Below, piece by piece: positions 20,660-57,316 of a stretch of 64,000 nucleotides of DNA. The translations under genes and the position numbers were made by a program. Every line of letters starts with the position of its first letter. Position 1 is the stretch's first letter. Origin of the DNA: an uncultured Candidatus Micrarchaeota archaeon (GTDB lineage Archaea > Micrarchaeota > Micrarchaeia > Micrarchaeales > Micrarchaeaceae); assembly GCA_963741095.1 (NCBI GenBank), contig CAVUGN010000002.1, positions 1-64,000 of the forward strand, given 5' to 3'. The notes beneath the pieces were generated by a model. That model made no database searches. It was not told where the DNA came from and was given only the letters and a program-made list of their open reading frames with translations.

Positions 20660-21160
20660 TCATTTCTGTAGGAATTTCAACAGCTCAGCGGCCGATTTGA
20701 CATCGCCTTTGATGCCAAGCGCCTCTGCGGTCTGGACCAGTTTCTCTTCCGTGACCGAAACCCCGTTGACGAGGAGGTAGTAGTAGATGTAGACGTACCC
20801 CAAATGGCTCTTCAGCTTCATTGACAGTATTATGTCTACGAGTTTCTGGTTGGGGATTATGTCAAGGCTGCTTATCACGGCTGTGAGGTTCTTCCTGTCT
20901 ATCTCCTTGCTCGCGAAACTGAGCAAGGCAGCGGCGTAAAGGTAGCGCGCTATCCCATCGTCCAGATGTGCGACAAATTCTTTGTTCTCCAGGTGCTGGC
21001 CCAGGGCGAGCATGAGTATCTGCAGGCATGACGAAAATATTGCGGTGACCACCGCTTTTAGGGTGTCGGACATCTGCACCGCGGCCCTCGACTTTTCGCA
21101 CTCCAGCTCGCTGCGGCTCAATTGAGGCTCTTTTTTGCCGGATGGTTGTTTGCCCGCCAC
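20660..21160 (-). CDS. Hypothetical protein with two tandem aP1/L12 N-terminal-like domains
   Basis: RYLYAAALLSFASKEIDRKNLTAVI and GYVYIYYYLLVNGVSVTEEKL both resemble the aP1 start (MEYVYAALLLH..GKEINEENL..VL). Confidence 0.6.
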   Translation of the reverse strand: MAGKQPSGKKEPQLSRSELECEKSRAAVQMSDTLKAVVTAIFSSCLQILMLALGQHLENKEFVAHLDDGIARYLYAAALLSFASKEIDRKNLTAVISSLDIIPNQKLVDIILSMKLKSHLGYVYIYYYLLVNGVSVTEEKLVQTAEALGIKGDVKSAAELLKFLQK

Positions 21161-21281
21161 ATCATCGCCCGTTCGTGTGCAGTGCCCTCGCTGTGCAATT
21201 TTATAAGCTTTTCGTTGCGGATGATTTGCTTTTCGCGTGGCGCATGCTTTAAATCATGAAAGGTGGAAGCATAATTACAAT

Positions 21282-21404
21282 GCCAGGGTGGCAGAATCTG
21301 GTAATGCGCCGGTCTTGAATTTTAGGGTTCAAGAGCTGATTAGTGATGCGAACAGGCCAACCGGTTTCCGCAAGGAATTTTGGGTTCAAATCCCAACCCT
21401 GGCG
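21282..21404 (+). tRNA. tRNA-Ser(UGA) with 39-nt canonical intron (21320-21358)
   Basis: GCCAGGG/CCCTGGC acceptor stem, CCGGT/ACCGG anticodon stem, TGA at 21316-21318, long variable arm, G discriminator, BHB (CTTG pairs with CAGG). Confidence 0.93.
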
Positions 21405-21488
21405 ATCCATAGTTTTGCCCGACGACAAGCCAAACTCCAAAAGCAACTTTGTCGTAGAAGGTTCAGAGCCCTACGTTTATTAGGGCAT

Positions 21489-22028
21489 TTAGTGATCTGC
21501 ATATTTAGACGGGATACAAACCTTCAAGATTTCTGATACTACCGCGTTGGGTTTCTTGTTTGCATCTATGGCGATAGCTCCCTTTTCTAAAATATGCTTT
21601 TCCCACCAATTTTTCCAATTTAGCACCCACCTCTGAACCGCTGTGGTCTGCCCAAATCCATCTCCTTTTCGATTGCTAAGCCGATTGCGCAGAATTCTAG
21701 GGCTTATCTTCAACAGCAAGATTTTATCGAATAACGGAAGCAGTTCATCTAGATTTCCCGCAGTTCCGCAGTAGAATACAATGCCTTTATTATTTCTTTT
21801 AATTAAATTTTGTAGTTTTCTTTTGTTGCATATCCACTCGTATTTTTTGACTGCTTTAAGATTACCGGTATTTATTTTTGCTGCCTTCCCTGTTCTTTTA
21901 TTGACCATGCTAAAAAGGCCTTCAATATCTTCGATAGAATGTGCTTTATAGCCAAGTTTAACTAGTTCTTTACATACTGTTGACTTACCAGAACCAGTAA
22001 TGCCCGTAATCAAGATTGATTTATGCAT
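21489..22028 (-). CDS. P-loop nucleotide/shikimate kinase-like (AAA_18-type) protein, cassette 1
   Basis: ILITGITGSGKST Walker A; RLSNR lid; IDANK. Confidence 0.8.
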   Translation of the reverse strand: MHKSILITGITGSGKSTVCKELVKLGYKAHSIEDIEGLFSMVNKRTGKAAKINTGNLKAVKKYEWICNKRKLQNLIKRNNKGIVFYCGTAGNLDELLPLFDKILLLKISPRILRNRLSNRKGDGFGQTTAVQRWVLNWKNWWEKHILEKGAIAIDANKKPNAVVSEILKVCIPSKYADH

Positions 22029-22103
22029 GTTTAATCTGTTAGAAGGGTATGTTTAAATCTTTAAATGCCATAGCTAATTATTATGCCAAACATCGAGAGG
22101 GAT

Positions 22104-22168
22104 TGTATGTCGTTGTATATGCGTTGTGAACTGACATGAAACTAGCCCGCCCAACCCTGGCGATCCAT
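22104..22168 (+). repeat. att-like site A1: conserved arm plus 19 bp identical to the tRNA-Ser 3' end and flank
   Basis: cccaaccctggcgatccat at 22150-22168 equals 21392-21410; 26 bp identical to site A2, with further upstream similarity. Confidence 0.88.
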
Positions 22169-22197
22169 TTTAGTTTCAAAGAAAGAGACCTGAAAAC

Positions 22198-22584
22198 ATG
22201 AAAGAAAACAAACTTGCAATTGAGATAAATTGTTCTGCTGAAGTGTTATTTGATATTACGACATATCCTGGCAAAGCCCCTTTATGGATAGACGCAATCA
22301 TTCGTGAAGAAACCAACGAATTCCCGATAAAGTTAGGTACAACGTACAAGGAACTTAACAGGTCAGGCAAGTGGTCAGAATACACTGTCGTCAAATTTCG
22401 TAGAAATAGGATATTTGAATTAGCGCAGAAGGATAGCTCTTATCATGTGCGTTACACATACGAACCTATTTCGGAGAAGAAAACAAGACTTGTATACTTA
22501 GAATGGGTTGATGCTGGCGAACTCGAATACCCGTTTTTACCAGTAGTCTTGAAGAAGCTCAAGAAAGTCATCGAGAGATTATAG
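22198..22584 (+). CDS. SRPBCC/START-fold-like protein, cassette 2
   Basis: IEINCSAEVLFD...P..APLW...YTYEPISEKKTRL...LKKLKKVIE pattern. Confidence 0.7.
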   Translation: MKENKLAIEINCSAEVLFDITTYPGKAPLWIDAIIREETNEFPIKLGTTYKELNRSGKWSEYTVVKFRRNRIFELAQKDSSYHVRYTYEPISEKKTRLVYLEWVDAGELEYPFLPVVLKKLKKVIERL

Positions 22585-22628
22585 TAACGGGCATGTGCCA
22601 GAGATGCGATGCAGCGTAAATTCTGCTT

Positions 22629-22689
22629 TTTATACCATTGTATACGTATTGTGCAATGATATAAAACTAGCCCGCCCAACCCTGGCGAT
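22629..22689 (+). repeat. att-like site A2
   Basis: aaactagcccgcccaaccctggcgat (22664-22689) equals 22139-22164; TTGTATA..TTGTG..TGA.AT arm shared. Confidence 0.88.
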
Positions 22690-22699
22690 TGATGGGTCT

Positions 22700-23326
22700 A
22701 TGAAGGATGAGCAAGCTGTAAAACTGGTGGAAACGGGCTATGACAAAATCTACAGGGGGTACTAGGAAAAAAGAAAGGGCAGCACTAAGGAGGTAAATGA
22801 TCTTGTTGCACGGCTGCCCAAAAAGGCGAAGGTCCTTGATGTGGGCTGCGGAGGGGGCTACATATCCAGGCTCTTGGTGAAAAAGGGTTTTAGAGTTATT
22901 GGAGTCGACATATCAGGGAATGTGGTAAAACTTGCCCGGAAGAACGTACCGGGAGCAAAGTTCTACAAGATGGACATGAGGAAATTGAAATTTGGGGCGG
23001 GATCCTTTGATGGCATAACGTCTTTTTATGCAATAATACACGTTCCAAGAAAATACCACCTGCTGGTGCTCAAGGAATTTAGCACGCTCCTGAAGCCCGG
23101 TGGGTTTCTGCTATTAACCATGAGTGGAACGGCGTTCGGGTAGGATATCGAGAAGGATTGGCTCAAGCTCGGTGCTGATATGTATTGGAGTCAGTTCGGG
23201 CTGGAGAAGAACCTGTTGCTCTTGAAAAAGGCGGGCTTTGACATACTTTGGCATAGGTTTGTCGGTCCGAAGAATGACAGGCATCCTGCAATATTGGCGC
23301 AGATGGTAAGGGGGCATGGCGAGTGA
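22700..23326 (+). pseudogene. Class I SAM-dependent methyltransferase interrupted by two in-frame TAG codons, cassette 3
   Basis: ATG 22700 MKDEQAVKLVETGYDKI..; TAG 22763; KVLDVGCGGG, GVDIS, LLKPGG; TAG 23141; then DWLKLGADMYWSQF..KAGFDI to TGA 23324, all in one frame. Confidence 0.85.
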
Positions 23327-23341
23327 AGGGAGGAATATACT

Positions 23342-23381
23342 TTAGATGCTTAACTCGCAGTCGATGTTCAACCCTGGCGAA
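23342..23381 (+). repeat. att-like site B1
   Basis: ttagatgcttaactcgcagtcgatgttcaaccctggcgaa; 12 bp match to the tRNA end; arm shared with B2. Confidence 0.8.
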
Positions 23382-23389
23382 GGATAATC

Positions 23390-24655
23390 TCATTCAAGCA
23401 GGATATTCTGCTTCAACAGCAACTTGAAAGCAGGAACTATATTGATGGTCTTGCCTTGCGATCTTTGTACAGTGTCTTGATGCGCTGACACGATGTATCC
23501 TTTCCTGGACTTGAACTTGCGCATGAAGGCATTCAAGCCGGTGGTGTCTATGCCACCGTATTTGATCTCTATGGGTATTGGACCCTTTTCAAGCACGATA
23601 TCGACTTCATTGTGGTGTTCGTCACGCCAGAAGTATTTTGCGTCGAGCTGGTTGACGACCATCCATTCGAAGACTTTTGATTGGTACAGTGCGTCGTCTT
23701 TGAAGGCAAGTTCCGTCGATATGATGGTGGGATAATATTTCCTGAGCGACCTTTCTGATTTCCTTATGTTCCGGGAATAATTGTACATTTTCCGCACTAT
23801 GAACGCGTCTTCCAGATACCCTAAATACTTCGAAACGGAGTAACGGGATATCCCCAGTTCTTTCGCTAGCTTCGCATAATCTATGACTTGCCCGGGAGCA
23901 TCCATTAGGATCCTTAGGATCGCGCCAAGAGCATCGGTGTTTCTGATTCCGAACATCTCGGGTATGTCCTTATAGAGCACCTTATCGCTTATGCCTTCTG
24001 TTATGTATTTCTTGATGTATGCTGGATTGATCTTCCCGACTAATTCGGGAAAGCCCTGTGTACGCATAAATTCCGGCATCGCGCGCTCAAGTTCATGCTC
24101 GTAGATGCCGATGGGCTCGGCCTTTTGCCCCTTGAAATCTACGAATTCCTTGAAAGTTAATGGAGTTATTTTAAATTCGAGCAGCCTTCCAGAGAGCGTC
24201 TCTTTCGACTTCTTTCTTATGAAAAGTGATTCCGAACCCGATATGAGTATCTTCACGTTTCTTGAATAGACATCGTATATCCATTTCAGCTTTCCTTCCC
24301 ATCCTTCGAGCTTCTGTATCTCGTCGAGTACCAGAAGGTGTTTTCCTTGGCTGATACTCTTCCCCGTAATAAGTTCATACTCCCGGATTATGTCTCGGAT
24401 ATCTGCAGTTATCAGTTCGTCAAAAGAAAAGAACACGATGTTCAGGGGGTCGGTGCCCGACTTTATGCTGTCATCAATTATCTTCAGCAATAGTGTTGTC
24501 TTTCCGACCCTCCTAAGACCAGTGAATGCGAGTATCTGCTTTTCCGGCATAAACTCCTTTATCCGCCCGTATATTTGCCTTTCTTTGTAGTCTAGCTCGA
24601 AGTGGCCGTTCCACCACGTATTTGCCTCTCTGAGGACATCTGAAATCTGCGCCAT
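23390..24655 (-). CDS. COG1373-type ATPase (AAA_14 + DUF4143), cassette 4
   Basis: GLRRVGKTT, LDEIQ, ISGSES, LSGR, GFPE; C-terminal EVDIV..PIEIK. Confidence 0.9.
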   Translation of the reverse strand: MAQISDVLREANTWWNGHFELDYKERQIYGRIKEFMPEKQILAFTGLRRVGKTTLLLKIIDDSIKSGTDPLNIVFFSFDELITADIRDIIREYELITGKSISQGKHLLVLDEIQKLEGWEGKLKWIYDVYSRNVKILISGSESLFIRKKSKETLSGRLLEFKITPLTFKEFVDFKGQKAEPIGIYEHELERAMPEFMRTQGFPELVGKINPAYIKKYITEGISDKVLYKDIPEMFGIRNTDALGAILRILMDAPGQVIDYAKLAKELGISRYSVSKYLGYLEDAFIVRKMYNYSRNIRKSERSLRKYYPTIISTELAFKDDALYQSKVFEWMVVNQLDAKYFWRDEHHNEVDIVLEKGPIPIEIKYGGIDTTGLNAFMRKFKSRKGYIVSAHQDTVQRSQGKTINIVPAFKLLLKQNILLE

Positions 24656-24782
24656 TCGTAATCAACATGGATTGCAATCTATGATTAATATGATAAACAA
24701 AGATATAAATACCTTCTATCGATTCTGCACACTGATTTTGGTATTACAGCGGAGTTAGGCGTTAGTGGGGATTTGAGTGAGG

Positions 24783-24823
24783 TTAGAGTTTTAACTCGCG
24801 GATCGATGTTCAACCCTAGTGAA
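24783..24823 (+). repeat. att-like site B2 (degenerate)
   Basis: ttagagttttaactcgcggatcgatgttcaaccctagtgaa; core 10/12 identical to the tRNA end. Confidence 0.72.
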
Positions 24824-24834
24824 TTTTTGTTTGA

Positions 24835-26598
24835 TCATGAGCGGAAAGATGCTATGGCTTTGTCTATGCCGCTTATCGGGAAGACGCGTATTCTATCTTT
24901 TGTTGCGCTTGCCCGATAGAATTCATAGTGTGCATCATTCACCAGTACGATTATTTCGTCGTAATCCTTGAGCCTTGCCTCAAACATTACGATGGTTTCG
25001 TTGATATTTTTTCTGCCTGTCTCGTACTCGATTGCTATCTTTTTGCTGTTCGCATACGCAACGATGTCTGGACCGTTCGAGTTGTCGATTATGGCGTTGT
25101 TTATCCCCATCCTGTCCAATTCCTCTTTTATCTTTATCACATACACTTCGTGCTCTGCACTCGCGGGCCCGTTGCGTGCCATAAGCCATTGCTCCTTCGC
25201 GCCATACCAGTCAATCGTTATGAGGTCTATGCCCATTGCGGACAACGAAGTTTCGTCGGCAGGCCCGAATTCTTCTATGAATTTTTCTAATTTTATTGGA
25301 CTTTTGGAGAAAGCGATGGCTCTTTCGATGTTGTATCGGGTGTTTGGGACTGCGCGAATCTGTTTTGCTCTGGAGAATGCGCTAGGAGTTTTCAGCAGGA
25401 TCGGCTCCTTGAACCTGCCGCTTATCAGCATCGCTTCGCTCACTCCCAGTTTATGCAGCCTGCTCTTTACGGACAATGCTTTTTCGGGCATGCCGCCTGA
25501 GAGTATGTTTGATATGTAGTTTACGTCTCCCGGCTCCCTTGGGTAGAATGCGATGAATGTTGATGCATTCGCTATTATCTGCTTGTTCAGGTCGCTCGCG
25601 GTGTGCGTGGCGAGTATCACTCCGACTCCGTATTTCCTACCTTCGCCGATGAGCTGGCTTACCATGTAACTTCCAGACCCCGTGCTGCTTATCAGGAAGT
25701 CGGCTTCGTCTATCATTATGTACATGCCTATGCCCCTCTCCTTCTCATTGCCTTTCATGTCCTGGTATAGCCTGCGGAGCAGTTCATGAAGGTATATCAG
25801 CCTCATTCCTTCGCCTTTCATGGAGCTTAGTGAGAACGAGTTTACCCCATGCTTGAGGTCGCTTATGCTGACAAATCCCTTAGTGAATGATGCACTGTCC
25901 AGTTGTGATATCCTACCCCTCAGATGCAGCAGCGTGTTCCTCTCTCCAGGAGTCCTTGCGTTGTTCACGAACACTCCCAGTTCGCCCATAAGATCCTTTA
26001 TCGTGGGCGTTCTTGCAAGAGTTGCGGCATCCTTGCTTCTTGCGCCTGCCTTGCGGTACATGTACCACATGCACTGGCTGAGCTTCATCGCCTGCACGTA
26101 GCCCAAGGAATAGACGGATTTCAACAGGTTTGTCAGCTCCGATATGCGCGACGATACTGTTGTGCCGCCAAGGTCGAAGATGTTTATTCCCGAGCATGAG
26201 GAGTCGTGCACATTTCCGCTCAGTTCCCTTACCGCATTCTCATGCTCGTCGTGTGCATCGAAGATTATGATCGGTATCCCGTTCTTGCCTATGTCGCTCA
26301 GCATCGACCTCAGGAGCGTGCTCTTGCCGAAGCCGCTCATGCCCACGATTATGATGTGTGGATTTGGCTCTTTTGAGGGAAACAGAAATATTGGTTTCTT
26401 CTGCTTCCTCCAGAAGAACACGTCTTCGCAGTTCATGCTGCCGCTCTTTCCGTTGAATCTGTAGCTCATCGACTTGCCTCGGGACAGAACCGCTGTGGAA
26501 AAACCGAGGTTAATCCTGAGCTCATTGCTGTTTTTGGCCTTCGTGAAAATGCTTTTCAGCCTGCCAAAAAGATTTTTTAGTTTGTCCAAGATATGCAT
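24835..26598 (-). CDS. HerA/VirB4-like (DUF87) ATPase with C-terminal PD-(D/E)XK-like domain
   Basis: NPHIIIVGMSGFGKST, IFDAHDEH, IMIDEAD, EGRKYGVGVILATH; C-terminal EH...GPDIVA...IAIEYETG. Confidence 0.85.
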   Translation of the reverse strand: MHILDKLKNLFGRLKSIFTKAKNSNELRINLGFSTAVLSRGKSMSYRFNGKSGSMNCEDVFFWRKQKKPIFLFPSKEPNPHIIIVGMSGFGKSTLLRSMLSDIGKNGIPIIIFDAHDEHENAVRELSGNVHDSSCSGINIFDLGGTTVSSRISELTNLLKSVYSLGYVQAMKLSQCMWYMYRKAGARSKDAATLARTPTIKDLMGELGVFVNNARTPGERNTLLHLRGRISQLDSASFTKGFVSISDLKHGVNSFSLSSMKGEGMRLIYLHELLRRLYQDMKGNEKERGIGMYIMIDEADFLISSTGSGSYMVSQLIGEGRKYGVGVILATHTASDLNKQIIANASTFIAFYPREPGDVNYISNILSGGMPEKALSVKSRLHKLGVSEAMLISGRFKEPILLKTPSAFSRAKQIRAVPNTRYNIERAIAFSKSPIKLEKFIEEFGPADETSLSAMGIDLITIDWYGAKEQWLMARNGPASAEHEVYVIKIKEELDRMGINNAIIDNSNGPDIVAYANSKKIAIEYETGRKNINETIVMFEARLKDYDEIIVLVNDAHYEFYRASATKDRIRVFPISGIDKAIASFRS

Positions 26599-26975: not shown

Positions 26976-27262
26976 TAACCCAGGAAGCCGCTTGCCTACG
27001 CTACGCTCAGGCACAACCCAAAGGAACAGACCCGTCTACGACACAGTATGCCTTACGTTCACCTACTTGTATGGCGCAGGTATGCGCAACTTTCCTCTAT
27101 TGTTGTTGGCGCAAAGGCTCTTATACTTTACTCCTCAAATGTGACTGATTTACTGAATAGTGGTGTTTAGTAAAAGGTGTTAAATAGCTTATTGTTCATA
27201 ATTCTACCGCCGAGATTGTCTTGGCTAACCCAAGGAACAGGCCTGCGCTACGGCGCAGGCAC
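26976..27262. repeat. Cluster of degenerate ~37-bp AACCCA(A)GGAA + stem-loop elements
   Basis: Copies at 26976, 27015 and 27226, partial at 27061; perfect hairpin GCCTGCGC-TACG-GCGCAGGC at 27241-27260. Confidence 0.6.
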
Positions 27263-43712: not shown

Positions 43713-43839
43713 CCCCTTTTGGAAAAGGCATGTACGCCCCACCCCGTCAACCGGCAGTAAACTCGAGATCGCGAGAATATCCCGCGAAAATGGAGAAGGG
43801 GTGCAAAAATCTGTTTGGTATATAACCCCTGATGCGGTA

Positions 43840-43946
43840 TGGGCCCGGTGAGATTTGAACTCACGACCTACGGCTTTCCTGGTGGGACCTTCACTGAAAG
43901 CCCCACGTATAAGACCGTCGCTCTAACCAGGCTGAGCTACGAGCCC
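43840..43946 (-). tRNA. tRNA-Ile(UAU) with 32-nt canonical intron (43876-43907)
   Basis: GGGCTCG/CGGGCCC acceptor stem, ACGGT-CT-TAT-A / A-GCCGT anticodon arm, intron hairpin GTGGGG/TCCCAC. Confidence 0.9.
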
Positions 43947-43998
43947 ACAACTTTAATGGTAATGATAATCTAATCAAGGTATTTAATCCGTTGGCTGA

Positions 43999-57190: not shown

Positions 57191-57224
57191 TCCTAAATTC
57201 TTATCAGCACAGATTATTCTCTGT

Positions 57225-57313
57225 GCGGGCGTAGTCTAGCCTGGTAGGACGCAATTTCGAACAAGCGCAGGCTTCCCAAGCTTGTGACCCGGGTTCAAAT
57301 CCCGGCGCCCGCA
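57225..57313 (+). tRNA. tRNA-Gly(CCC) with 16-nt non-canonical intron (best fit 29/30, 57255-57270)
   Basis: GCGGGCG/CGCCCGC acceptor stem; removing the intron gives CAAGC-TT-CCC-AA-GCTTG; relaxed BHB. Confidence 0.88.
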
Positions 57314-57316
57314 TAC

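What the first reader, a model, noticed from the sequence alone, without database searches (positions are those of the whole stretch)
21282..24823. Integron-like, polarised array of single-gene cassettes anchored on the tRNA-Ser 3' end, without an integrase
Seen: the tRNA 3' end recurs four times downstream, with the match decaying with distance (19, 15, 12 and 10/12 bp). The repeats define units of about 758, 525, 692 and 1442 bp, each holding exactly one gene in either orientation: kinase-like, SRPBCC, methyltransferase, COG1373 ATPase. Each copy is preceded by a conserved non-tRNA arm of one of two types (22104-22149 ~ 22629-22674; 23342-23368 ~ 24783-24810), although the cargo genes are unrelated. 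No recombinase gene lies in the window. Known: tyrosine integrases duplicate tRNA 3' ends, and tandem islands at tRNAs exist but are usually multi-kb and integrase-bearing. Inference: minimal circular cassettes (gene + attP) inserted serially at the tRNA by trans-acting recombinases, newest nearest the tRNA, forming a gene-acquisition record in a DPANN archaeon.
Basis: partly seen in the sequence, partly recalled or inferred. Interest (0 to 1): 0.88.

Follow-up and report, generated by a model that had tools for sequence, protein, structure and literature searches.

The report
Integrase-less mini-element array at tRNA-Ser
Four very small pieces of foreign DNA, each carrying one gene and ending in a copy of the last bases of a serine tRNA gene, sit one after another behind that tRNA in a tiny-genome archaeon; this looks like repeated site-specific insertion, a known way to gain genes, in an unusually miniature form.

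Summary
An intron-bearing tRNA-Ser(UGA) at 21282-21404 is followed by three exact copies and one degenerate copy of its 3' end. The exact 12-mer occurs four times in the 1.08-Mb genome, all here and all on one strand. The copies bound four units of 758, 525, 692 and 1442 bp. Each holds one gene and has 38-48% GC, against 51-60% in the flanks. Each copy is preceded by one of two arm types (0 of 1000 shuffles reach either within-type score).

The junction sequences fit serial integration at the tRNA-proximal att site exactly. No recombinase lies in the window. The genome's only tyrosine integrase sits in a separate 4.2-kb tRNA-integrated element. That element's tRNA-proximal arm shares a motif with unit 1.

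My best reading is an accretion array of non-autonomous, CIME-like derivatives of the tRNA-targeting integrase elements common in this archaeal family. Whether the units arrived as single-gene circles (the integron-like reading) or shrank in place is unresolved. The arms were found in no other genome, viral or metagenome contig. Read-level evidence could not be obtained. I rate it a new variant of a known kind, of moderate interest.

The parts
21282..21404 (+). tRNA-Ser(UGA) gene with an intron of about 40 nt. It anchors the array (attL side).
   Evidence: Rfam tRNA 47.5 bits. ARAGORN with introns calls tRNA-Ser(tga) at 21281-21405.
21392..21410 (+). Reference att core at the tRNA 3' end, CCCAACCCTGGCGA plus TCCAT. 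The TCCAT belongs to the left end of unit 1.
   Evidence: family D2. The exact 12-mer is counted.
21406..22149 (.). Unit E1 (arm family A), 744 bp, GC 38.3%. Its left end holds CGACGACAAGCC at 21420-21431.
   Evidence: GC; the motif occurs 3 times in the genome, each 10-14 nt after a tRNA 3' end.
21489..22028 (-). E1 cargo: a 179-aa P-loop kinase-like protein.
   Evidence: Pfam AAA_18 at 39.7 bits. NCBIfam 'putative kinase' at 32.9 bits, below its cut-off. Patchy in the order: 22 of 247 other genomes, at most 33% identity.
22103..22149 (+). Arm A, copy 1. It has TTGTAT/TTGTAT/TTGTG at 10-11-nt spacing and an imperfect inverted repeat, then AAACTAGCCCG.
   Evidence: D1; 0 of 1000 shuffles reach the score. 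The spacing was read by eye.
22150..22168 (+). att core copy 1, identical over 19 nt to the tRNA end.
   Evidence: D2.
22164..22674 (.). Unit E2 (arm family A), 511 bp, GC 38.6%.
22198..22584 (+). E2 cargo: a 128-aa SRPBCC protein.
   Evidence: Pfam Polyketide_cyc2 at 28.3 bits. Best homologue 62% identical, 8 proteins in all. Relatives occur in DPANN, CPR and other lineages, often just 3' of a tRNA.
22628..22674 (+). Arm A, copy 2. It contains a 13-bp imperfect palindrome.
   Evidence: D1. (minus-strand fold, z -2.5)..
22675..22689 (+). att core copy 2, a 15-nt match.
   Evidence: D2.
22689..23368 (.). Unit E3 (arm family B), 680 bp, GC 47.6%.
22700..23326 (+). E3 cargo: a class I SAM methyltransferase pseudogene. 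The in-frame TAG codons are codons 22 and 148 of this reading frame (22763-22765 and 23141-23143).
   Evidence: Pfam Methyltransf_25 at 77 bits. In the alignment, homologues have Q/S/N/D/H at the first TAG and mostly G at the second.
23342..23368 (+). Arm B, copy 1.
   Evidence: D3 and D17; 0 of 1000 shuffles.
23369..23380 (+). att core copy 3, a 12-nt exact match.
23381..24810 (.). Unit E4 (arm family B), 1430 bp, GC 44.4%.
23390..24655 (-). E4 cargo: a 421-aa AAA_14+DUF4143 ATPase. It matches the PADLOC candidate defence gene PDC-S01.
   Evidence: Pfam. PADLOC PDC-S01 at 217.8 bits. 3707 homologues, best 65% identity, from archaea and bacteria.
24783..24810 (+). Arm B, copy 2.
   Evidence: D3 and D17..
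24811..24822 (+). att core copy 4, degenerate (CAACCCTAGTGA, 10/12). It is the distal end of the array, 12 nt from the HerA-like stop codon.
24835..26598 (-). Flanking core gene: a HerA/FtsK-like ATPase. It is not part of the array. In 13 of 17 relatives it lies on the other side of the tRNA.
   Evidence: Pfam DUF87. Synteny.

Best explanation
The locus is a tRNA-anchored accretion array. Small foreign DNA elements were inserted one after another by site-specific, tyrosine-integrase-type recombination between an element att site and the 3' end of tRNA-Ser(UGA). Each insertion restored the tRNA and pushed the earlier att copy, with the earlier element, downstream.

The present units are non-autonomous: none has a recombinase. 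They are best seen as CIME-like derivatives of the tRNA-targeting integrase elements that are common in this archaeal family. Two came from a 38%-GC lineage with arm A and two from a 44-48%-GC lineage with arm B.

Shown:
- the repeat structure;
- the two arm families;
- the foreign composition;
- the absence of a recombinase;
- the junction logic.

Inferred:
- that a tyrosine integrase did it;
- that the integrase genes were lost by deletion, in place or before arrival;
- that the distal units are older. E3 is a pseudogene and the last core carries 2 substitutions.

I lean towards deletion derivatives rather than purpose-built cassettes.
For: 1. The 12-mer core occurs four times in 1.08 Mb, all at this locus and all on one strand.

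2. Junction logic. J1 is arm A(E1) + core + E2's left end. J2 is arm A(E2) + core + E3's left end. J3 is arm B(E3) + core + E4's left end. J4 is arm B(E4) + mutated core + the chromosome. This is what insertion at the tRNA-proximal site predicts.

3. The arms are similar within a type (0 of 1000 shuffles) and not across types. They stand upstream of cargo genes in E1 and E4 and downstream in E2 and E3. They therefore belong to the site, not to gene expression.

4. GC is 38.3, 38.6, 47.6 and 44.4% in the units, against 49-53% in the neighbouring genes and 52.5% for the contig.

5. tRNA-targeting integrases are common in the family: 66 of 128 other genomes have a PF00589 hit. In 23 of the 30 best loci a tRNA gene lies beside the integrase.

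6. The same genome has a classic element: tRNA + integrase + cargo + an exact 36-nt repeat 4232 nt downstream. It also has a 160-nt derivative at another tRNA that keeps only that element's two ends. So loss of the interior, integrase included, happens in this genome.

7. E1's left end carries CGACGACAAGCC 14 nt after the core. The only other copies in the genome (CGACGACAAAGCC) lie 10 nt after the tRNA ends of the integrase element and of its 160-nt derivative. A related TTTACGACGACAAAA stands 6 nt after a tRNA-Val beside an integrase in another genus.

8. The cargo is typical island cargo: a candidate defence ATPase, patchy accessory genes and a decaying methyltransferase.

9. The kind is described in the literature. 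CIMEs and tandem accretion: passages of PMC5704250. Tandem integration and integrase loss in archaea: passages of PMC8371274. Successive integrations separated by partial tRNAs: passages of bioRxiv 10.1101/2020.12.28.424599.
Against: - No integrase fragment or any other pseudogene debris lies inside the units. Non-coding DNA per unit is only about 30-210 nt. Four separate clean deletions, each leaving one whole gene, would be surprising.
- No element carrying arm A or arm B with an integrase was found: 0 in viral contigs; 0 in metagenome and genome contigs for arm A; 0 true hits in 247 other genomes of the order for either arm.
- The motif shared by E1 and the integrase element is short. The local alignment is reached by 36 of 1000 shuffles, and the 9-mer core of the motif occurs 31 times in the genome.
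- The right-hand (P') ends of units of one family are not significantly alike.
- The only integrase in the genome targets a different tRNA with a different 36-nt core.
- The locus is rearranged relative to relatives, so no empty site is available for comparison.
- Contiguity of this metagenome-derived contig could not be checked with reads.
Confidence: 0.6

Rival explanations
1. True minimal cassettes. Each unit entered as a 0.5-1.4-kb circle made of one gene plus a one-sided att module of about 60-80 bp (arm + core). A recombinase encoded elsewhere captured it: a helper plasmid or virus, or an integrase element since lost. The tRNA would then act as an integron-like acquisition platform.
For: - The units are extremely compact: one intact-length gene each and about 30-210 nt of non-coding DNA.
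- Two units of each arm family carry unrelated cargo.
- The conserved module is one-sided, arm + core at the 3' boundary of each unit, as attC is in integron cassettes.
- E2's gene starts 34 nt after the core, behind an AT-rich TTTTAGTTT box that is part of the site (read by eye).
- Homologues of E2 in other DPANN and CPR contigs lie immediately 3' of co-oriented tRNAs of several identities. 15 tRNAs fall within +-500 bp in 71 kb, against 41 in the other 626 kb (binomial p = 3.7e-4; 79 deduplicated loci, not fully independent).
- Another single-gene, integrase-less, low-GC unit of 1077 bp lies between a tRNA-Ala and a 13-nt copy of its end in the same genome.
Against:
- Neither arm was found elsewhere, with or without an integrase.
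- No convincing attR was found behind the tRNA-adjacent E2 homologues: matches were at most 10 nt, at control level.
- The 160-nt empty derivative shows that in-place deletion gives similar products.
- E1 homologues in the order are not tRNA-linked: 1 of 9 loci has any tRNA nearby.
Confidence: 0.25
2. Two insertions, not four. Pre-formed composites (E1+E2 and E3+E4), each made by accretion in a donor, excised by their outer sites and integrated as blocks.
For: The arm type and the GC are shared within each pair. Transfer of whole composites is described for CIME-ICE tandems (PMC5704250 passages).
Against: Nothing distinguishes this from four single events. Arm A copies are only 82% alike, so the two A units are not recent copies of one element.
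Confidence: 0.1
3. A classical integron, with an IntI integrase and attC hairpin sites.
For: Single-gene units are bounded by repeats. The complement of the arm-core junction happens to contain GTTGGGC / GTTGAAC, which fits the attC R' consensus GTTRRRY as I recall it. Most of this comes from the tRNA sequence itself.
Against: - There is no integron integrase. The only tyrosine recombinase is on another contig and scores 25.8 bits against the 265-bit cut-off of NCBIfam integrase_gron.
- No hairpin is common to the four junctions on either strand: z from +0.9 to -2.5.
- The genes lie in both orientations.
- The repeat is the tRNA 3' end.
Confidence: 0.01
4. An artefact or a non-recombinational origin: a chimeric metagenome assembly at a conserved tRNA, or tRNA-primed retro-insertion.
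For: - The genome is a metagenome-type assembly in 11 contigs.
- The tRNA-HerA order differs from 13 of 17 relatives.
- The neighbour expected from relatives is cut by the start of contig C8.
Against: - Repeats of 12-26 nt are too short to mislead an assembler.
- Four ordered, co-oriented copies with paired arms are not produced by chimerism.
- The repeated sequence continues with the genomic A after the discriminator base, not with CCA. It therefore copies the gene and not the mature tRNA, which argues against reverse transcription from a tRNA primer.
Confidence: 0.04

Closest known systems
CIMEs (cis-mobilizable elements) and tandem accretion at the 3' end of tRNA genes, described for streptococcal ICE/IME families
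   Same: The elements keep attL and attR but have no integration genes. They stand in tandem at one tRNA 3' end, separated by att copies. New arrivals integrate into an att site of the resident (PMC5704250 passages).
   Different: Those are bacterial, usually several kb long, with visible decayed genes and a known parent ICE. Here the host is a small-genome archaeon, the units are 0.5-1.4 kb with one gene each, there is no debris and no parent element was found.
Tycheposon-type tRNA islands of Prochlorococcus
   Same: [quoted passage not shown] Degenerated remnants and extra partial tRNAs are present (bioRxiv 10.1101/2020.12.28.424599 passages).
   Different: Tycheposons carry integrase and replication modules and about 10 kb of cargo. 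No such hallmark genes are present here.
Archaeal integrated elements in tandem and 'gene capture'
   Same: Tyrosine-recombinase elements re-use one site and form arrays (PMC6563490 passages). Some archaeal integrated elements lack an integrase, presumably through loss after integration (PMC8371274 passages).
   Different: The smallest cryptic integrated element listed in the Thaumarchaeota survey is 2.6 kb and has an integrase. The SSV-type signature, a split int gene flanking the element, is absent. She et al. 2001, 'Gene capture in archaeal chromosomes', was seen only as a reference entry; its content is recalled.
Integron gene cassettes
   Same: A functional analogy only: single-gene units, each with a recombination site at one end, stacked at one chromosomal site.
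   Different: There is no IntI, attI or Pc and no attC hairpin. The orientations are mixed. The site is a tRNA 3' end.
IMEX elements (integrase-less elements that use host Xer at dif). This comparison is recalled; it was not looked up.
   Same: Integrase-less elements inserted serially at one site by a recombinase encoded elsewhere, giving arrays separated by site copies.
   Different: The target here is a tRNA end, not dif. No XerA equivalog was detected in this genome: the best tyrosine recombinase scores 49.3 bits against a 220-bit cut-off.

Membership tests
tRNA-integrated site-specific element (attL/attR) | Direct repeats identical to the tRNA 3' end bound each element, in the same orientation as the tRNA. 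| tested here: met
   four exact copies plus one degenerate copy, all on +. None occurs elsewhere in the genome.
tRNA-integrated site-specific element (attL/attR) | The element encodes its own integrase. | tested here: not met
   PF00589 hits only C9; PF16795 and PF00239 give nothing in the genome (94% complete).
tRNA-integrated site-specific element (attL/attR) | Foreign composition and absence from relatives (an empty site). | tested here: inconclusive
   The GC drop is clear. 0 of 17 relatives have repeats. However, those relatives are other genera, the locus is rearranged, and the congener's tRNA-Ser locus is not assembled.
tRNA-integrated site-specific element (attL/attR) | Excision to a circle and a restored empty site. 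| not testable with these tools
CIME (cis-mobilizable element) | [quoted passage not shown] | tested here: met
   (att copies with arms). (no recombinase).
CIME (cis-mobilizable element) | Derived by decay from an autonomous integrative element. | tested here: inconclusive
   E1's left arm shares a motif with the genome's integrase element, but the match is short. No parent element was found.
CIME (cis-mobilizable element) | Mobilised together with, or by, a functional element that uses the same att site. | not testable with these tools
   This needs reads or an experiment.
Integron | An IntI integrase gene with attI and a promoter next to the array. | tested here: not met
Integron | attC sites: imperfect inverted repeats that fold as single-strand hairpins at each cassette boundary. 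| tested here: not met
   8 folds with z from +0.9 to -2.5. No structure is shared by the A and B junctions.
SSV-type (class I) archaeal integrase element | attP lies inside the int gene, so int(N) and int(C) fragments flank the integrated element. | tested here: not met
   (no PF16795). No spare coding space flanks the cores.
IMEX (Xer-dependent) | Integration at dif by a host Xer recombinase. | tested here: not met
   The target is a tRNA end. No XerA equivalog reaches its cut-off.
Tycheposon | Hallmark integration and replication modules (tyrosine recombinase, primase/helicase). | tested here: not met
   the cargo genes are a kinase-like protein, an SRPBCC protein, a methyltransferase and an AAA_14 ATPase only.

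The most novel reading that the evidence does not exclude
The tRNA-Ser 3' end serves as an integron-like capture platform in a DPANN archaeon. Circles of one gene plus a one-sided att module of about 60-80 bp (arm + 12-14-nt tRNA core) are inserted and shuffled by an integrase supplied in trans. The same principle would explain the other integrase-less single-gene unit in this genome (tRNA-Ala), and the frequent placement of the SRPBCC gene directly 3' of tRNAs in DPANN and CPR genomes. It would be a general, minimal gene-exchange currency for ultra-small symbionts.
Probability: 0.2. Interest if true: 0.8.

Novelty: new variant of a known kind. Interest (0 to 1): 0.45.

Why it matters
DPANN archaea have tiny genomes, and it is poorly understood how they gain accessory genes. 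This locus shows at base-pair resolution that a tRNA 3' end has taken up at least four foreign genes in 3.4 kb, including a candidate defence gene, in units far smaller than the integrated elements described for archaea. If the units move as such, they would be the smallest site-specific gene vehicles outside integrons, and they would make gene flow between episymbionts testable. If they are deletion products, the locus is still a clean example of how integrated elements are pared down to the useful gene.

Tried and rejected
Arm searches.
- Arm A 23-mer in viral contigs: 0.
- Degenerate arm A 22-mer in metagenome contigs: 0. In genome contigs: 0.
- Arm A 21-mer with up to 2 mismatches in 248 genomes of the order: one hit outside G000 (G135). 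It lies in coding sequence with no tRNA nearby and was judged chance, with about 0.2 expected by my estimate.
- Arm B 20-mer in the same 248 genomes: only G000.

Cargo in viral contigs. No close relatives of E1, E2 or E4. E3 was not tried.

attR behind tRNA-adjacent E2 homologues. Longest exact matches were at most 10 nt, at control level. Local alignments in 11 loci gave only 8-nt matches in two related tRNA-Trp loci (13/300 and 9/300 shuffles). I treat these as a lead, not a finding.

TAG recoding of the methyltransferase: rejected. Homologues have different residues at the two sites.

Split-tRNA or 3'-half reading: rejected. The 5' acceptor strand GCCAGGG occurs only at the tRNA itself between 20001 and 27000.

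tRNA-primed retro-insertion: rejected. The repeat copies the genomic base after the discriminator, not CCA.

Promoter/terminator scan: at shuffle level for promoters, and nothing tied to the arms.

PHROGs: only generic kinase and methyltransferase hits.

Sequencing runs. Four soil-metagenome runs of one study hold 38-74% of the sampled words of 21000-25200, and four others hold 5-14%. None was laid, so this is evidence of nothing.

Relatives' loci. 0 of 41 tRNAs in 447 kb have a second copy of their terminal 12-mer. The integrase loci in that set reach only about 1.5 kb to each side, so this says little.

Supplementary files of papers were not consulted. Those of the tycheposon and Thaumarchaeota papers may list small or integrase-less elements that I could not see.

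Full report
WHAT IS THERE

The window is the first 64 kb of contig C2 of a 1,078,454-bp genome in 11 contigs, 94% complete. At 21282-21404 (+) lies a tRNA gene with an intron of about 40 nt. Rfam scores it at 47.5 bits. ARAGORN with introns allowed reads it as tRNA-Ser(UGA); the default run misses it.

Its last bases recur downstream on the same strand. CAACCCTGGCGA is exact at 21394, 22152, 22677 and 23369, and a 10/12 copy lies at 24811. In the whole genome the exact 12-mer occurs four times, all here, with none on the other strand and none for the reversed control.

The copies are 758, 525, 692 and 1442 nt apart. Each interval holds one gene:
- E1: a 179-aa kinase-like P-loop protein (-).
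- E2: a 128-aa SRPBCC protein (+).
- E3: a SAM methyltransferase with two in-frame TAG codons (+).
- E4: a 421-aa AAA_14+DUF4143 ATPase (-).

Non-coding DNA per unit is only about 30-210 nt.

THE ARMS

Copies 1 and 2 are preceded by arm A: 22103-22164 matches 22628-22689 at 82% over 62 nt, with the last 26 nt identical. Copies 3 and 4 are preceded by arm B: 23342-23380 matches 24783-24822 with one indel.

With the core left out, no shuffle in 1000 reaches the A-A or the B-B score. A-B scores are at background. The sequences to the right of the cores are not significantly alike.

The arms stand upstream of the cargo gene in E1 and E4 and downstream of it in E2 and E3. They are therefore parts of a site, not expression signals.

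Arm A contains TTGTAT-like words at 10-11-nt spacing and an imperfect palindrome. The palindrome is 13 bp in copy 2. In copy 1 it is kept partly through paired changes. This was read by eye, with only two sequences.

JUNCTION LOGIC

Suppose each new element (arm - core - left end) recombines with the tRNA-proximal core. Every downstream core should then be preceded by the arm of the unit on its left and followed by the left end of the older unit on its right. That is what is seen.

This also explains the 'decaying' match lengths. The 19-nt match exists because E1 and E2 both begin with TCCAT. The 15-nt match exists because arm A supplies CCC and E3 begins with T. Arm B shares only the 12-mer. 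Real decay is limited to the last core (two substitutions) and to E3, which is a pseudogene: homologues have Q/S/N/D/H at the first TAG and mostly G at the second, so this is not recoding.

FOREIGN ORIGIN

GC is 38.3% (E1), 38.6% (E2), 47.6% (E3) and 44.4% (E4). The neighbouring genes are at 49-53% and the contig at 52.5%. Arm family and GC go together, which points to two source pools.

Cargo distribution:
- E1 has only distant homologues (at most 33% identity) in 22 of 247 other genomes of the order, and none in the congener.
- E2 belongs to a small family whose best match is 62% identical. It is spread over DPANN archaea, CPR bacteria and others.
- E4 has thousands of homologues at 65% identity or less across archaea and bacteria. 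It matches the PADLOC candidate defence gene PDC-S01 at 218 bits.

RELATIVES

In 17 tRNA-Ser(UGA) loci from other genera of the family and order, none has a convincing second copy of the tRNA end within about 10 kb. One 1-mismatch 12-mer in L025 looks like chance.

In 13 of the 17 the HerA-like gene lies immediately upstream of the tRNA and divergent from it. In this genome it lies downstream of the array. Its usual 3' neighbour is found cut off at the start of contig C8. The locus is therefore rearranged, no empty site can be shown, and I cannot explain the rearrangement.

The only congener, G001, does not have the tRNA-Ser locus assembled.

THE RECOMBINASE QUESTION

The window has no recombinase. 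The genome has one tyrosine recombinase. It sits in a textbook integrated element on C9: tRNA, integrase immediately after it, cargo, and an exact 36-nt copy of the tRNA end 4232 nt downstream.

Such elements are common in the family. 66 of 128 other genomes have a PF00589 hit, and a tRNA lies beside the integrase in 23 of the 30 best loci.

Two links to the array exist:
- A 160-nt unit behind a tRNA-Lys on C1 consists of just the two ends of the C9-type element. Interiors do get deleted here.
- E1's left end carries CGACGACAAGCC 14 nt after the core. The only other copies of this motif in the genome (CGACGACAAAGCC) lie 10 nt after the tRNA ends on C9 and C1. A similar word follows a tRNA-Val beside an integrase in another genus.

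The second link is short. 36 of 1000 shuffles reach its alignment score, and the 9-mer alone occurs 31 times. I treat it as suggestive.

Scanning all 34 tRNAs of the genome, six have a downstream exact copy of their terminal 12-mer within 15 kb, and never an upstream one. Besides the array and the C9 and C1 cases, these include a 1077-bp unit of 47.5% GC with one 282-aa gene behind a tRNA-Ala. The other two (tRNA-Arg, tRNA-Phe) are weaker. Integrase-less att-flanked units are thus a habit of this genome.

A LEAD FROM THE CARGO

In 79 deduplicated loci holding E2 homologues, tRNA genes are 3.2 times denser within 500 nt of the gene than elsewhere in the same loci (15 against 41; binomial p = 3.7e-4; the loci are not fully independent). 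In 11 loci the gene follows a co-oriented tRNA directly. The tRNAs differ: Glu, Gln, Trp, Ser, Pro, Arg.

I found no convincing attR behind those genes. Two contigs (L122, L164) show many partial tRNA-Ser copies around the gene.

VERDICT

The structure is best explained by repeated site-specific integration at the tRNA-Ser 3' end, giving an accretion array of units that are non-autonomous today. This kind is known:
- CIMEs and accretion in streptococci (PMC5704250 passages).
- Successive integrations separated by partial tRNAs in Prochlorococcus islands (bioRxiv 10.1101/2020.12.28.424599 passages).
- Tandem integration and integrase loss in archaea (PMC8371274 and PMC6563490 passages).

What is unusual is the size and cleanliness of the units. 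The smallest cryptic integrated element in the Thaumarchaeota survey is 2.6 kb and has an integrase. The two paired arm families are also unusual.

Whether the units travelled as single-gene circles remains open. It is not an integron, an SSV-type element or an IMEX by their defining features.

Noticed in passing
G000 contig C9:84427-88733 (L035 2428-6734): A 4.2-kb integrated element: tRNA, a tyrosine integrase directly after it, and an exact 36-nt repeat of the tRNA end. It carries a diversity-generating-retroelement-like module. This comprises an Rfam RT-16 RNA match (74.4 bits), an 81-nt repeat pair 505 nt apart (78% identity, the second copy richer in A), and a reverse transcriptase split into two overlapping ORFs (RVT_1 positions 7-67 and 78-205).
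   Followed up: partly
G000 contig C1, about 106500-106760 (tRNA-Lys on the - strand): A 160-nt unit between the tRNA-Lys end and a 16-nt copy of it. It consists only of the left and right ends of the C9-type element: an empty, miniature derivative.
   Followed up: partly
G000 contig C5:34062-35224 (L183 1063-2225): tRNA-Ala(GGC) followed by a 1077-bp unit that ends in a 13-nt copy of the tRNA end. The unit has 47.5% GC against 54% in the flanks. It holds one 282-aa gene of unknown function and no recombinase, so it is a second single-gene, integrase-less unit in this genome.
   Followed up: partly
window 21282-26598, versus L018-L034: In 13 of 17 relatives the HerA-like gene lies just upstream of tRNA-Ser and divergent from it. 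Here it lies downstream of the array, convergent with the tRNA. Its usual 3' neighbour, a membrane protein of about 600 aa, is cut off at the start of contig C8. I have no explanation for this rearrangement.
   Followed up: partly
L122 9300-13300 and L164 1-1500 (metagenome contigs holding E2 homologues): Dense clusters of partial tRNA-Ser copies surround small genes: the SRPBCC gene, an aminotransferase-like gene and a 181-aa P-loop protein. In L164 a 53-nt unit ending in the tRNA 3' end is repeated in tandem after two tRNA genes.
   Followed up: partly
window 27061-27132: A 72-nt intergenic stretch between the 102-aa gene and the 5S rRNA gene is 89% identical in another genus (G014) and partly matched in G012. 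It has no Rfam match and no notable fold (z about -0.5).
   Followed up: partly
window 57224-57314 and 43839-43947: ARAGORN reads a tRNA with a four-base anticodon (cgaa) at 57224-57314; Rfam scores it as tRNA at 49.1 bits. With introns allowed, ARAGORN calls a second tRNA-Ser(tga) at 43839-43947 (-); Rfam scores that at 58.7 bits. Both are probably intron-bearing tRNAs that have been misread.
   Followed up: no
window 22103-22149 and 22628-22674: Arm A holds an imperfect palindrome. Two of its stem positions differ between the copies on both sides (A-T against G-C). It also has three TTGTRT-like words about one helical turn apart. These are possibly protein-binding sites. Only two sequences exist and the pattern was read by eye.
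   Followed up: partly
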